From Phototrophicaceae bacterium (GTDB lineage Bacteria; Chloroflexota; Anaerolineae; Aggregatilineales; Phototrophicaceae): a stretch of DNA of 64,000 bases. Within the stretch, counting starts at the first letter, position 1. Each line of letters opens with the position of its first letter. Location: assembly GCA_965207905.1 (NCBI GenBank), contig OZ242316.1, positions 4,163,848-4,227,847 of the forward strand, given 5' to 3'. A program made the position numbers and the translations under genes. Below the pieces are notes generated by a model. The model was not told the origin of the DNA. It ran no database searches and was given only the letters and a program-made list of their open reading frames with translations. Shown here one piece after another: positions 27,949 through 30,097 of the stretch.

Positions 27949-28935
27949 ATGATCAGCAGAGGGCGCTCCCGCCGGACGACCATCATCACCGTCTACGTTA
28001 TGGTGGTCGTCCTGCTCTTTCTCGGGCGGCAGTTGGCGGCGCCGATGGTCTCACCCGTCCGCGAAACGGTCAATGACGCGCTGATCTTCATCTCGGACAC
28101 CGACTCGATCGACGCCGGGCGCGACTCTAATTCGGTTTACCGCATCGGGCTGGACGGGCGCGGATTGAAACGCATCGCCGGCTCCATATCGCATGGCGAG
28201 GGCTACCTGCGCACAACAGACATCGATTGTCACCCGGCGTCGCAGCAGCTGGTTATCGCCAGCCATCGGCGCGATCTAAACGGCTTCCACCACGCCCTGC
28301 TCGATGGCTCCGGGCTGCATCTGGACAAGCCGGCTACCGGAGACATGCTGTCTGCTACGCGGCAAATCGCCATAGCACCGGACGGCAGGGGCATCGTCGT
28401 CTCGCGCCAATTCGAAGACTTTGAAGAACCGCGCTTCGGCCTGGTCGCCGGCGATCTGATTAACCGCGATTTCGACATTGTCAAAGCGCCAACCTTGGAT
28501 CAGTCGTATATCTCGCCGAGCTTTTCACCCTCTGGGCGCCTGCTCGCCTACATCGTCAAGCGCTATGATGCTGCTGCCAGCTGGACCTCCCGGCTGGTCA
28601 TCGCCGTTCCCGCCGGGCGTACGGAGTGGGTCATCGCCGAGACGCGCCTGCAGATAAGCGATATAGACTGGTCGCCGACGGGCGAGTGGCTGGCGCTGGT
28701 GGCGGATGGGCAAATCTACCGCATTCACGGCACAGGCGGAGAGTTCACGCGGCTGACCGACCACCTCGGCGGCGCGACCTCGCCGCGCTGGTCGCCGGAT
28801 GGCGGGCGGATCAGCTACGTGACGGCTTCGACCTTCCCCGGCGTTCAGCAGATCATGATCATGAATGCCGATGGCTCGGGCAAGCGCCAAGTGACCACAA
28901 TCCGCGGCGATGTGACGAATGGCTGCTGGGTGTGA
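27949..28935 (+). CDS. TolB-like PD40/WD40 beta-propeller repeat protein, membrane-anchored or secreted
   Basis: 328 aa. An N-terminal hydrophobic segment is followed by PD40-type repeats (SPSFSPSGRLLAYIV, DWSPTGEWLALV, SPRWSPDGGRISYV). It ends ...IRGDVTNGCWV. Confidence 0.75.
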   Translation: MISRGRSRRTTIITVYVMVVVLLFLGRQLAAPMVSPVRETVNDALIFISDTDSIDAGRDSNSVYRIGLDGRGLKRIAGSISHGEGYLRTTDIDCHPASQQLVIASHRRDLNGFHHALLDGSGLHLDKPATGDMLSATRQIAIAPDGRGIVVSRQFEDFEEPRFGLVAGDLINRDFDIVKAPTLDQSYISPSFSPSGRLLAYIVKRYDAAASWTSRLVIAVPAGRTEWVIAETRLQISDIDWSPTGEWLALVADGQIYRIHGTGGEFTRLTDHLGGATSPRWSPDGGRISYVTASTFPGVQQIMIMNADGSGKRQVTTIRGDVTNGCWV

Positions 28936-28936
28936 G
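28900..28936. repeat. 37-bp direct repeat DR1 (the 3-prime end of the PD40 gene)
   Basis: atccgcggcgatgtgacgaatggctgctgggtgtgag matches 30061-30097 at 34 of 37 positions. Confidence 0.9.
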
Positions 28937-28964: not shown

Positions 28965-29369
28965 TTATTCGACTTCCCAATCTTCGACGTTCAAGCCGGG
29001 AATCCGCTCAAACTCGCTGATGTTATGTGTAACTACGATTAATCCCCTGGCGCGAGCAATGGCGGCTATCAGCATGTCGTGTTTGCCAATAGGAGAGCCG
29101 CGCTTTTCCAGAAAAGCGCGAATGCCGCCATACTCTTCCGCGGCGTCGTCATCAAAGGGTATACTTTCGAATTGCCGCAGAAAGTCGTCTTGTTTGGCGC
29201 GCGAACGTTCCGGCGTCTGACTCTTGCTGGAACCATAATACATTTCGCCCTTCGTAATCGCGCTTATGACGATGTCTGAAGAGGACTTGCTGTTAACTTG
29301 ATCGCGAACGCGGGGTGCTCTGCCATTGATATAATTTATGCAAGCATTGGTATCAAGCAAGTATTTCAT
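28965..29369 (-). CDS. vapC: PIN-domain toxin VapC
   Basis: 134 aa with MKYLLDTNACINYI...ISAITKGEMYYG...HDMLIAAIARARGLIVVTHNISEF, which includes the PIN acidic residues. Confidence 0.9.
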   Translation of the reverse strand: MKYLLDTNACINYINGRAPRVRDQVNSKSSSDIVISAITKGEMYYGSSKSQTPERSRAKQDDFLRQFESIPFDDDAAEEYGGIRAFLEKRGSPIGKHDMLIAAIARARGLIVVTHNISEFERIPGLNVEDWEVE

Positions 29370-30043
29370 TCACGCCGATCTTCATTCTCTACATATTCCG
29401 GCGGATGCCATTCAATCGGGTCGTCAGCCAGGCTGCCATAAGTCCGCTCGACGAAATCCGCCCAAGACATCTCGTGATCGTCTGTCGCGCCTTCCCGTCC
29501 CGCAGCGGGAATTGCTTCATGGTCGGTGGCTTCGATCGCCCTCAGCGTTGCCGCGAACGCGGGATTCTGCGTATCCGTAAAGCGTTCAAGGCAAGCGTCG
29601 TCCCGAAATAGCGCCCCGTCGGGCAGGATGGCGCCTGCGAAATCAGCATCGACAACGTCTGCGTCAGCCAGCCGCGCTCCCAACAAGTTTGCCCGATGCA
29701 GATTCACATGAGTCAGATTCGCTCCCTCCAGGCAGGCAAAACGCAAGTCCGCCATACCCAAGTTTGCTCGGCGCAGGTCTGCGCTATTGAGACTTGCGCC
29801 ATACAGGCGCGCTTGCCTCAAATTTGCGCCTTGCAGGTCACTTTCGCGGAGATTTGCGCCATCAAGAACAGCTCCGGCCAAATTCGCCCGGCGCAGGCTG
29901 GCGCCCGCCAAGTTCGCGTCCCGCAAATCGGCGACCGGTGCATCCTCGTGGCGGTCACCAACCGCAATGGTCTGTTGCTGCGTGTTTATCACAATCAGTC
30001 TGCTCAGCGAATCTAGGCCATGTCGTTGAACTGAGTGTATCAC
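29366..30043 (-). CDS. Pentapeptide-repeat protein in the antitoxin position of the VapC module
   Basis: 225 aa with a GTG start. About 20 consecutive A(D/N)LxG-type pentapeptides are present (ANLAGASLRRANLAGAVLDGANLRESDLQGANLRQARLYGASL...). The C-terminal tail is MSWADFVERTYGSLADDPIEWHPPEYVENEDRRE. There is a 4-nt ATGA overlap with vapC. Confidence 0.75.
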   Translation of the reverse strand: MIHSVQRHGLDSLSRLIVINTQQQTIAVGDRHEDAPVADLRDANLAGASLRRANLAGAVLDGANLRESDLQGANLRQARLYGASLNSADLRRANLGMADLRFACLEGANLTHVNLHRANLLGARLADADVVDADFAGAILPDGALFRDDACLERFTDTQNPAFAATLRAIEATDHEAIPAAGREGATDDHEMSWADFVERTYGSLADDPIEWHPPEYVENEDRRE

Positions 30044-30060
30044 AGGTGGATTACGATTTC

Positions 30061-30097
30061 ATCCGCGGCGCAGTGACGAATGGCTGTTGGGTGTGAG
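30061..30097. repeat. 37-bp direct repeat DR2 (orphan copy of the PD40 gene 3-prime end)
   Basis: atccgcggcgcagtgacgaatggctgttgggtgtgag encodes IRGAVTNGCWV-stop, with no gene body in front of it. Confidence 0.9.

What the first reader, a model, noticed from the sequence alone, without database searches (positions are those of the whole stretch)
29366..30043. A pentapeptide-repeat (nucleic-acid-mimic fold) protein occupies the antitoxin slot of a VapC module
The gene upstream of vapC overlaps it by 4 nt (ATGA), the classical antitoxin position. It is 225 aa, with about 100 residues of uninterrupted A(D/N)LxG pentapeptide repeats. This is the right-handed beta-helix fold known from the DNA mimics Qnr and MfpA. 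The repeats are followed by an acidic tail, MSWADFVERTYGSLADDPIEWHPPEYVENEDRRE, which resembles from memory the C-terminal toxin-binding tails of short VapB-type antitoxins. This would be a fusion of a nucleic-acid mimic with a PIN-binding tail. I am not aware of this antitoxin architecture being described, and it suggests neutralisation or regulation by substrate mimicry.
Basis: partly seen in the sequence, partly recalled or inferred. Interest (0 to 1): 0.6.

Follow-up and report, generated by a model that had tools for sequence, protein, structure and literature searches.

The report
Pentapeptide-repeat antitoxin paired with VapC
A small RNA-cutting toxin gene (VapC) is paired with an unusual partner: a rigid pentapeptide-repeat beta-helix joined by a floppy linker to the short peptide that ordinary VapC antidotes use, so it is a previously undescribed domain-swapped variant of an ordinary toxin-antitoxin pair, found in one genus of Chloroflexota.

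Summary
A pentapeptide-repeat (PRP) gene overlaps by ATGA an intact tRNA(fMet)-type VapC. The likely start is GTG at 29992, giving 208 aa rather than 225.

The tail is a real, portable antitoxin module:
- The same W..F..TYGSLADDP motif ends a 287-aa partner of a paralogous VapC in this genome.
- It ends 75-82-aa antitoxins that overlap VapC genes in other Chloroflexota and a planctomycete.
- It ends about 400 protein clusters worldwide, mostly 45-130 aa. Some carry RHH, MazE, ParD or FitA-like heads.

The PRP-VapC pair occurs in about 20 of 48 species of one genus, always between the same MFS and PD40 genes. It is a 1.16-kb low-GC insert bounded by 37-nt direct repeats, with empty sites in sister species and in a metagenome.

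Selection on the PRP helix is purifying (dN/dS 0.15, VapC 0.10). The linker is nearly neutral (0.65) and predicted disordered.

Substrate mimicry is not supported. The helix has only five coils, is about charge-neutral, and is closest to small cyanobacterial PRPs, not Qnr or MfpA. I found no described precedent.

Verdict: a new variant of VapBC. Neutralisation by the tail is well inferred. The role of the PRP domain is open.

The parts
28965..29369 (-). vapC: a 134-aa PIN-domain toxin of the tRNA(fMet)-specific VapC subfamily. The catalytic acidic residues D6, E42, D98 and E119 are intact.
   Evidence: Pfam PIN at 1.3e-15. NCBIfam NF047863 at 158.7 bits against a cut-off of 140. E=3e-32 to Salmonella VapC 6ifc and 9e-30 to Shigella VapC 3tnd, aligned over the full length with the acidic residues matching.
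29366..29992 (-). The PRP-tail antitoxin gene, 208 aa, probably starting at the GTG at 29992. Its stop overlaps the vapC ATG by ATGA.
   Evidence: ORF list. 22 homologues, 19 of them 206-208 aa. The upstream extension is not conserved. The 4-nt overlap is kept in 11 of 14 related loci.
29618..29932 (-). Pentapeptide-repeat right-handed beta-helix: 21 pentapeptides, about 5.25 coils (residues 38-142 of the 225-aa numbering).
   Evidence: PF00805 at 1.5e-26. AlphaFold2 pLDDT above 95. Foldseek matches Rfr32 2f3l at rmsd 0.9 A over 103 columns. dN/dS is 0.15. Net charge is about 0.
29516..29617 (-). C-terminal cap of the helix: the conserved ILPDG...LERFTD..NPAF..TL segment with helices at residues 153-156 and 161-176.
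   Evidence: Conserved columns in alignment A1. AlphaFold2 pLDDT 81-96 over the 10-residue blocks spanning residues 141-170, and 55 for the 171-180 block. dN/dS is 0.33.
29471..29515 (-). Variable, acidic, predicted disordered linker (residues 177-191).
   Evidence: pLDDT below 50. dN/dS is 0.65. Length and sequence vary in A1.
29369..29470 (-). Toxin-binding-type tail, MSWADFVERTYGSLADDPIEWHPPEYVENEDRRE. The core is nearly invariant in the family. It is shared with short VapC-linked antitoxins.
   Evidence: Invariant columns F197 to P215. A tail profile finds short antitoxins upstream of VapC genes. It finds 411 protein clusters at E<=1e-3, nearly all with the match at the C-terminus. Weak helix at residues 194-202 in the AlphaFold2 model.
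28900..28936 (+). Direct repeat copy 1. It is the last 37 nt of the PD40 beta-propeller gene, stop codon included, and forms the left boundary of the cassette.
   Evidence: the repeat finder family D2, 37 nt, 92% identical, spacing 1161.
30061..30097 (+). Direct repeat copy 2, non-coding. It lies 4 nt from the stop of the convergent MFS gene and forms the right boundary of the cassette.
   Evidence: Empty sites in sister species have the MFS stop and the PD40 stop 5 nt apart. A metagenome contig joins 28899 to 30061.

Best explanation
This is a type II VapBC-like toxin-antitoxin cassette. The usual small DNA-binding head of the antitoxin has been replaced by a pentapeptide-repeat beta-helix.

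Shown:
- The toxin is an intact tRNA(fMet)-type VapC.
- The upstream, translationally coupled gene encodes a folded 5-coil PRP helix with a helical cap, then a disordered linker of about 15-20 residues, then a 33-residue acidic tail.
- That tail belongs to a widespread family of C-terminal peptides found on short antitoxins of this same VapC subfamily.
- Helix, tail and toxin are all under purifying selection. The linker is not.

Inferred:
- The tail folds onto VapC and blocks its active-site groove, as VapB tails do.
- The PRP helix no longer provides operator binding, so classical autorepression is probably absent. No palindrome lies upstream.
- Instead, the helix most likely serves as a rigid protein-binding or oligomerising platform. 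Toxin release would then depend on what binds the helix, or on cleavage of the exposed linker.
- The nearest VapC outside the PRP clade (60-63% identical) has a 75-aa antitoxin with almost the same tail. The fusion therefore most likely arose when the head of such an antitoxin was replaced.
For: Toxin:
- Searches give the PIN domain, the VapC equivalog above cut-off, E=3e-32 to solved VapC, and D6/E42/D98/E119 kept.

Coupling:
- The ATGA overlap is in the window and in 11 of 14 related loci.

The tail is a portable VapC-partner module:
- The own-genome paralogue VapC (56% identical) has a 4-nt-overlapping 287-aa partner with no known domain. It ends in PWDKFIDLTYGSLADDPVV.
- A profile of PRP tails plus this paralogue finds 75-82-aa proteins with the same tail overlapping 133-aa VapC genes: L010, L011, L015.
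- The same arrangement occurs in a Thermoguttaceae genome (L038).
- A scan of 1.84 billion proteins gives 411 clusters at E<=1e-3. In the best 150, nearly all are 45-130 aa with the match at the C-terminus.
- Among 147 of these, some carry Unstab_antitox, FitA-like RHH, MazE, ParD, RHH_1 or Rv0623-like heads.

The fusion is real and functional:
- The reading frame across helix, linker and tail is kept in about 35 sequences.
- dN/dS is 0.15 for the PRP helix, 0.28 for the tail, 0.10 for VapC and 0.65 for the linker.
- AlphaFold2 gives a confident helix, a disordered linker and a weak tail helix.

Origin:
- VapC of PRP pairs are 68-73% identical to each other and 60-63% to the L010 VapC, whose antitoxin is short.

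Typical TA population behaviour:
- The cassette has lower GC than its flanks, 0.52-0.60 against 0.62-0.68.
- It is bounded by 37-nt direct repeats.
- It is present in about 20 of 48 species of the genus, always in the same slot.
- Empty sites exist in sister species and in a metagenome.
- Decayed copies exist.
Against: - There is no experimental or structural evidence here that the tail binds or neutralises this VapC. No complex prediction was possible with the tools.
- The tail family itself has no characterised member that I could find. Its short members are annotated 'hypothetical protein' on Nostoc plasmids.
- The tail has no Pfam or NCBIfam model.
- It shows no significant similarity to solved VapB chains.
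- The Arg of the ...PIER motif is kept in at least 90% of 147 tail proteins. In the PRP family it is an invariant Trp, so the binding mode may differ.
- In one species (L029) the tail is truncated although VapC is intact. In another (G447) a frameshift in the linker separates helix and tail although VapC is intact. These may be assembly errors, or signs that neutralisation does not need the full fusion.
- No RNA data were found. No promoter consensus was found.
Confidence: 0.7

Rival explanations
1. Sensor-antitoxin or defence module. The tail holds VapC. The PRP helix is a bait or receptor for a foreign (phage or plasmid) or stress-induced protein. Binding of that protein, or attack on the helix or linker, frees VapC and shuts down translation (abortive infection). 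This refines the best explanation rather than contradicting it.
For: - The PRP helix is under purifying selection as strong as that on the toxin.
- Outward-facing residues on two of its four faces are somewhat more conserved (mean entropy 0.89 and 1.05 against 1.30 and 1.34). This hints at a binding surface.
- Other large non-DNA-binding heads carry the same tail: a 287-aa helical protein and an HD-domain protein, P0160.
- Relatives have a restriction-modification pair 2-3 kb away.
- Earlier unchecked notes place defence candidates nearby in this window.
Against: - No PADLOC model matches either protein.
- No trigger is known.
- The slot lies between housekeeping-looking genes (MFS, PD40, Fe-ADH).
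- The face-conservation difference is small.
- There are no phage data for this uncultured lineage.
Confidence: 0.25
2. Substrate mimicry. The PRP helix imitates a nucleic-acid helix (the tRNA anticodon stem) and occupies the RNA-binding surface of the VapC dimer. It would neutralise together with the tail.
For: - The PRP fold has the diameter of a nucleic-acid duplex. MfpA and Qnr are accepted DNA mimics (established knowledge; their structures are among the Foldseek hits).
- Five coils, about 25 A, is roughly the length of an anticodon stem-loop (inference).
- The helix is tethered next to the toxin-binding tail by only about 35-50 residues.
Against: - The net charge of the helix is about 0, ranging from -5 to +5 across 23 family members. 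That is unlike the strongly acidic surfaces expected of a mimic.
- Qnr and MfpA models score 17-48 bits against cut-offs of 240-500.
- The best structural matches are small cyanobacterial PRPs that are not known mimics.
- The same tail works with many unrelated heads, so the head is not needed for the basic interaction.
Confidence: 0.1
3. It is not a toxin-antitoxin system. The pair is a domesticated, non-toxic RNase-plus-adaptor complex in which the PRP protein targets or regulates VapC for a housekeeping RNA-processing task.
For: - The chromosomal slot is the same in all 14 loci examined.
- Both genes are under purifying selection.
- There is no DNA-binding head and no operator-like palindrome.
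Against: - The cassette is present in only about 40% of species of the genus.
- It is bounded by direct repeats, with empty alleles.
- It has lower GC than its flanks.
- Copies are decayed in several species.
- The catalytic residues and the close relationship to proven tRNA(fMet)-cleaving toxins are intact.
Confidence: 0.08

Closest known systems
VapBC type II toxin-antitoxin systems with a tRNA(fMet)-specific VapC (Shigella/Salmonella VapBC, PDB 3tnd, 6ifc, 6ifm; Leptospira VapC; Rickettsia VapBC2, 3zvk)
   Same: - The toxin is a full-length homologue (E=3e-32 and 9e-30) with all four catalytic acidic residues.
- It passes the NCBIfam equivalog cut-off.
- The antitoxin gene lies upstream and is translationally coupled.
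- The antitoxin ends in an acidic peptide predicted to be unfolded on its own.
   Different: - The antitoxin head is a 5-coil pentapeptide-repeat helix, not an AbrB/SpoVT DNA-binding dimer.
- The antitoxin is 208 aa, not about 75 aa.
- The tail shows no significant similarity to the solved VapB tails.
- No operator-like palindrome lies upstream.
An unnamed family of short (about 45-130 aa) VapC-linked antitoxins ending in W..F..T(Y/A)GSL.DDPIER..QG.YE.RE. Examples are L010, L011, L015 and L038, and 'hypothetical proteins' on Nostoc plasmids.
   Same: - The tail is the same. The core FxxxTYGSLADDPIE is 11 of 12 identical to L010.
- The VapC subfamily is the same (48-63% identity).
- The 4-nt overlap is the same.
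   Different: - Their heads are small: a helical Unstab_antitox-like head, a beta RelN-like head (weak, E=0.027), or RHH, MazE or ParD heads.
- In the PRP family the conserved Arg of PIER is Trp, and QG.YE.RE is replaced by PP.Y.ENEDRRE.
Small cyanobacterial pentapeptide-repeat proteins of unknown function (Rfr32 2f3l/2g0y, Np275 2j8i, Alr5209 6omx)
   Same: - They share the right-handed quadrilateral beta-helix of about 5 coils.
- Fit is rmsd 0.8-0.9 A over 103 columns to Rfr32, with 32-47% identity in the repeats.
   Different: None of them carries an antitoxin tail or is known to be linked to a toxin. The cap motif ILPDG...LERFTD..NPAF is specific to this family.
Qnr / MfpA / AlbG topoisomerase-protecting DNA-mimic PRPs
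   Same: They share the pentapeptide-repeat fold.
   Different: - They have 8-9 coils and dimerise.
- They are acidic DNA-like rods that bind gyrase (established knowledge).
- Here the scores are far below the family cut-offs, identity is 13-25%, and net charge is about neutral.
Modular or promiscuous antitoxin architectures, such as the Panacea-domain antitoxins (named from my own knowledge; no paper was read for this). Earlier unchecked notes of this scan describe VapB tails fused to restriction subunits, methyltransferases, OB-fold proteins and ATPases.
   Same: The principle is the same: a short toxin-specific peptide is combined with exchangeable larger domains.
   Different: Here the exchangeable domain is a pentapeptide-repeat helix, which I did not find described in that role.

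Membership tests
VapBC type II toxin-antitoxin system | A PIN-domain toxin with the four conserved acidic catalytic residues | tested here: met
   PF01850 at 1.3e-15. NF047863 at 158.7 bits against a cut-off of 140. D6, E42, D98 and E119 align with those of Shigella and Salmonella VapC.
VapBC type II toxin-antitoxin system | An antitoxin gene directly upstream, co-oriented and translationally coupled | tested here: met
   The ATGA overlap is in the window. It is kept in 11 of 14 related loci.
VapBC type II toxin-antitoxin system | An antitoxin with an N-terminal DNA-binding domain (AbrB, RHH, Phd/YefM or HTH) that autoregulates the operon | tested here: not met
   The head is a pentapeptide-repeat helix. 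No inverted repeat lies in the 120 nt upstream. No consensus promoter was found.
VapBC type II toxin-antitoxin system | An antitoxin C-terminal peptide homologous to toxin-binding tails of VapC antitoxins | tested here: met
   The tail is shared with short antitoxins that overlap VapC genes. It is shared with 411 clusters, some bearing Pfam antitoxin heads. Similarity to the solved enterobacterial VapB tail is not significant.
VapBC type II toxin-antitoxin system | The toxin arrests growth and the antitoxin binds and neutralises it | not testable with these tools
   Neither an experiment nor a complex prediction was possible. The only indirect evidence is co-inheritance, selection and the pattern of decay.
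Pentapeptide repeat proteins (PF00805) | Tandem A(D/N)LXX repeats that form a right-handed quadrilateral beta-helix | tested here: met
   PF00805 at 1.5e-26. 21 repeats in register. AlphaFold2 pLDDT above 95. Foldseek top hits are all PRPs.
Qnr/MfpA-type DNA-mimic PRPs | Membership of the Qnr or MfpA sequence families | tested here: not met
   The best Qnr-family score is 47.8 bits against a cut-off of 450. MfpA scores 32.6 bits against 360.
Qnr/MfpA-type DNA-mimic PRPs | A long (8-9 coil), strongly electronegative, DNA-like rod | tested here: not met
   There are 5.25 coils. The helix has 11 basic and 13 acidic residues, and net charge across the family runs from -5 to +5. Surface electrostatics on a structure were not computed.
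Known anti-phage defence systems (PADLOC-DB 2.0) | A match of either protein to a defence-system model | tested here: not met
   No family at E<=0.01 for the PRP protein, VapC or the 287-aa paralogue partner.

The most novel reading that the evidence does not exclude
The pentapeptide-repeat helix may be an active part of toxin control rather than a passive replacement head. It could be a nucleic-acid-shaped plug that co-occupies the tRNA-binding face of VapC. Or it could be a bait that a phage or stress protein binds, which pulls the tail off and fires the toxin. Either way it would be the first pentapeptide-repeat protein outside the gyrase-protecting group with a defined molecular partner, and a new class of sensor-antitoxin.
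Probability: 0.2. Interest if true: 0.8.

Novelty: new variant of a known kind. Interest (0 to 1): 0.5.

Why it matters
Pentapeptide-repeat proteins are abundant, especially in cyanobacteria and Chloroflexota. Apart from the gyrase-protecting Qnr, MfpA and AlbG group, they are mostly of unknown function. Here one is physically wired, through a known kind of toxin-binding peptide, to a well-understood RNase toxin. That gives a simple genetic and biochemical read-out for what such a helix does.

For toxin-antitoxin biology, it is a clean natural case of an antitoxin that has lost its DNA-binding head while both halves stay under selection. It therefore tests whether autoregulation is dispensable and what else an antitoxin head can do.

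It also defines an unannotated but widespread antitoxin tail family (about 400 clusters) that combines with very different heads: RHH, MazE, ParD, an HD domain, a 287-aa helical protein and the PRP helix.

Tried and rejected
- **Family models for the tail.** Pfam and NCBIfam scans of the tail alone gave nothing.
- **Word-indexed homologue search with the 55-aa tail.** No candidate was found. One capped search was lost. The exhaustive profile search later succeeded.
- **Tail profile against PDB sequences.** Only chance hits appeared.
- **hhalign of 141 tails against Shigella-type VapB.** It reproduced the alignment I expected from memory (W..F, D, R..G..E.RE) but with probability 0.3% and P=0.19. 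Homology to the solved VapB tail is not shown. The VapB set was shallow, at over 83% identity.
- **Internal start at M192 giving a tail-only peptide.** Rejected as a general mechanism because that Met is not conserved in the family.
- **AlphaFold2 of the 287-aa paralogue partner.** pLDDT was 37, all-helical and uninformative.
- **RNA evidence.** The runs that hold the sequence look like metagenome DNA contigs up to 105 kb, so there is no expression data.
- **Promoter, terminator and palindrome scans.** Nothing was found. A TGnTACACT-like extended -10 at about 30034-30042 is shared by the window, L001 and, loosely, L003 in the alignment. This is only a by-eye consensus match.
- **A recent paralogue as source of the PRP domain.** The only other PRP-like match in the genome is 47% identical over 81 aa.
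- **PADLOC.** No match.
- **Complex prediction.** I could not predict the complex. The tools fold single natural chains only.
Full report
**1. What is in the sequence**

On the minus strand, a 134-aa ORF (28965..29369) is preceded by an ORF open from 30043 to 29366. The stop of the upstream ORF overlaps the downstream ATG by ATGA.

The downstream protein is a PIN domain (Pfam 1.3e-15). It passes the NCBIfam equivalog for tRNA(fMet)-specific VapC with 158.7 bits against a cut-off of 140. It aligns end to end with the solved Salmonella VapC (E=3e-32) and Shigella VapC (E=9e-30). The four catalytic acidic residues, D6, E42, D98 and E119, are conserved.

The upstream protein carries 21 consecutive pentapeptide repeats at residues 38-142 (PF00805 1.5e-26; register).

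The start needs one correction. Of the 22 homologues, 19 are 206-208 aa, and the closest one begins MINTQQQ. In the 84%-identical relative the frame upstream of that point holds stops. The start is therefore most likely the GTG at 29992, giving 208 aa.

**2. Anatomy of the partner protein**

AlphaFold2, run with the 23-sequence family alignment, gives:
- a very confident beta-helix (pLDDT above 95, residues about 38-145);
- a helical cap (helices at 153-156 and 161-176);
- a disordered stretch (177-191, pLDDT below 50);
- a weakly predicted helix in the tail (194-202).

Foldseek finds only pentapeptide-repeat proteins. The best geometric fits are small cyanobacterial ones of unknown function: Rfr32 (rmsd 0.9 A over 103 columns), Np275 and Alr5209. 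MfpA, Qnr and AlbG are distant at 13-25% identity. They score far below their NCBIfam cut-offs.

Across ten intact gene pairs, Nei-Gojobori dN/dS values are:

| Segment | dN/dS |
|---|---|
| PRP helix | 0.15 |
| Cap | 0.33 |
| Linker | 0.65 |
| Tail | 0.28 |
| VapC | 0.10 |

Synonymous sites are near saturation in many pairs. The closest pair gives the same ranking.

So the helix and the tail are both functional, and they are joined by a nearly unconstrained tether.

**3. Is the tail an antitoxin tail?**

Family libraries have no model for the tail. Four independent lines nevertheless support the claim.

(a) The same genome holds a paralogous VapC, 56% identical. Its upstream gene overlaps it by 4 nt and encodes a 287-aa protein with no recognisable domain. 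That protein ends in PWDKFIDLTYGSLADDPVV.

(b) A profile built only from PRP tails and this paralogue was scanned over 401 Chloroflexota genomes. It found 75-82-aa proteins with the same tail. Each overlaps a 133-aa VapC of the same subfamily by 4 nt (L010, L011, L015). L012 has the tail beside a damaged VapC. A planctomycete (Thermoguttaceae) has the same arrangement.

(c) An exhaustive profile search of 1.84 billion representative proteins gave 411 clusters at E<=1e-3. In the best 150, almost all are 45-130 aa and the match sits at the C-terminus.

(d) Among 147 of these, some carry classical antitoxin heads: Unstab_antitox, FitA-like RHH, MazE/AbrB, ParD, RHH_1 and Rv0623-like.

The tail is therefore a portable partner peptide for this VapC subfamily. 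The PRP protein carries it in the right place.

Two things are not shown. First, homology to the structurally solved enterobacterial VapB tail is not significant. hhalign reproduces the expected register, but with probability 0.3%, and a PDB sequence search finds no VapB. Second, no member of this tail family appears to be characterised. Its short members on Nostoc plasmids are annotated 'hypothetical protein' next to 'VapC family toxin'.

One difference may matter. The Arg of the ...DDPIER motif is kept in at least 90% of 147 tails. In the PRP family it is an invariant Trp.

**4. Distribution and history**

The nearest public relative is a Phototrophicaceae (Chloroflexota) metagenome-assembled genome. 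Related sequences occur in a sponge metagenome.

In a sample of 48 species of the window's genus, about 20 carry the PRP-tail gene. No genome outside the genus did so, among 32 from other families of the same order and 400 spread across the phylum.

In all 14 loci examined, the pair lies between the 3' ends of the same MFS transporter and PD40 beta-propeller genes.

In the window, the cassette has a lower GC content than its flanks, 0.52-0.60 against 0.62-0.68. It is bounded by 37-nt direct repeats, 92% identical, that duplicate the end of the PD40 gene. An earlier first-reader note pointed this out.

Three sister species have the empty site, with the two stop codons adjacent or, in the closest one, 5 nt apart. 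In one metagenome, a contig joins 28899 directly to 30061 and skips exactly 1161 nt. It stands beside a contig that carries the cassette, at word depths of about 462 and 119.

Decay also occurs:
- VapC is truncated while the partner is intact (L020).
- VapC is lost and the end of the tail is replaced (L023).
- The tail is shortened (L029).
- A frameshift in the linker leaves VapC intact (G447). This could be an assembly error.

This patchy, indel-like, decaying behaviour is what toxin-antitoxin cassettes typically show.

The VapC of PRP pairs are 68-73% identical to each other. They are 60-63% identical to the VapC of L010, from another genus of the same family. Its antitoxin is a 75-aa protein with nearly the same tail. 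The simplest history is a single replacement of the head of such an antitoxin by a PRP domain. All PRP-tail proteins found share the same cap motif, ILPDG...LERFTD..NPAF, including the more divergent P0057 and P0108.

**5. How it most likely works**

Shown: an intact VapC; a translationally coupled partner with a folded helix, a floppy linker and a VapC-family antitoxin tail; and selection on all three functional parts.

Inferred, with about 70% confidence overall: the tail folds onto VapC and blocks its groove, as VapB tails do.

The head cannot be a classical operator-binding domain. No palindrome or consensus promoter lies upstream. Autoregulation is therefore probably absent or indirect.

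The role of the helix is open. I rank the options as follows:
1. A protein-binding or oligomerising platform that makes toxin release depend on a partner, or on cleavage of the exposed linker. Outward residues on two of the four faces are somewhat more conserved.
2. A sensor or bait in a defence role. There is no PADLOC match and no trigger is known.
3. Substrate mimicry. This fits least well. The helix has only five coils, is about charge-neutral and is not Qnr- or MfpA-like. The same tail also works with many unrelated heads.

**6. Comparison and novelty**

The toxin is a member of the tRNA(fMet) VapC family. The module meets the positional and tail criteria of VapBC, but fails the criterion of a DNA-binding antitoxin head.

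Full-text searches combined pentapeptide repeat with antitoxin, with VapC, and with toxin-antitoxin plus PIN domain. They found no description of a PRP antitoxin.

Earlier unchecked notes of this scan describe VapB-like tails fused to other large proteins, and a PIN-PRP fusion in a cyanobacterium. These suggest a broader theme of portable PIN-inhibiting tails. I did not test those notes.

I class this as a new variant of a known kind, of moderate interest. The architecture is real, conserved and undescribed. It is confined to one genus, and its special mechanism remains inference.

Noticed in passing
Own genome outside the window: G000:C1:3712294-3713157 (locus L007 1492..2759, minus strand): A second VapC, 135 aa and 56% identical, is overlapped by 4 nt by a 287-aa all-helical partner with no Pfam domain. 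The partner ends in the same tail (PWDKFIDLTYGSLADDPVV). It has orthologues of 285-288 aa elsewhere (P0036, P0090, P0167). The AlphaFold2 model was uninformative (pLDDT 37).
   Followed up: partly
window 28900-28936 and 30061-30097; locus L030 (empty site); metagenome run X5: The vapC-PRP cassette is a 1161-nt indel unit bounded by 37-nt direct repeats that duplicate the 3' end of the PD40 gene. Sister species have the empty site. One metagenome holds both the filled form (depth about 119) and the precisely empty form (depth about 462). The second repeat copy is recognisable only in the window and its closest relative. The insertion or deletion mechanism is unknown, and there is no recombinase in the cassette.
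   Followed up: partly
Proteins P0160 (200 aa) and P0105 (191 aa) from the tail-profile search: The same antitoxin tail is fused to a roughly 150-aa helical head. In P0160 that head matches the Cas3 HD domain (PF18019, 1.5e-06). This is another non-canonical head on this tail. I could not look up the genomic context.
   Followed up: no
Locus L039 (G447:C4:3012300-3014800): In one species a frameshift inside the linker puts the PRP helix and the still-conserved tail in different frames, while VapC is intact. Either this is a long-read assembly indel, or it is a natural split that would leave a tail-only peptide.
   Followed up: partly
Tail alignments A1 (PRP family) and A6 (147 tail proteins): The Arg of the ...DDPIER motif is kept in at least 90% of tail-bearing proteins. 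In the PRP family it is an invariant Trp (W212), and the following QG.YE.RE is replaced by PP.Y.ENEDRRE. No matching change in VapC was examined.
   Followed up: no
Cyanobacterial plasmids (for example NC_003267.1 27958-28209, NZ_CP023283.1 3125-3355): Short antitoxins with this tail are annotated 'hypothetical protein' next to 'type II toxin-antitoxin system VapC family toxin'. A widespread antitoxin family of about 400 clusters therefore lacks a name and a family model.
   Followed up: partly
Loci L001 7285-8624 and L005 7220-8603 (relatives): In relatives, an SfiI/BglI-like restriction endonuclease and an N6/N4 methyltransferase lie just beyond the Fe-ADH gene, 2-3 kb from the cassette.
   Followed up: no
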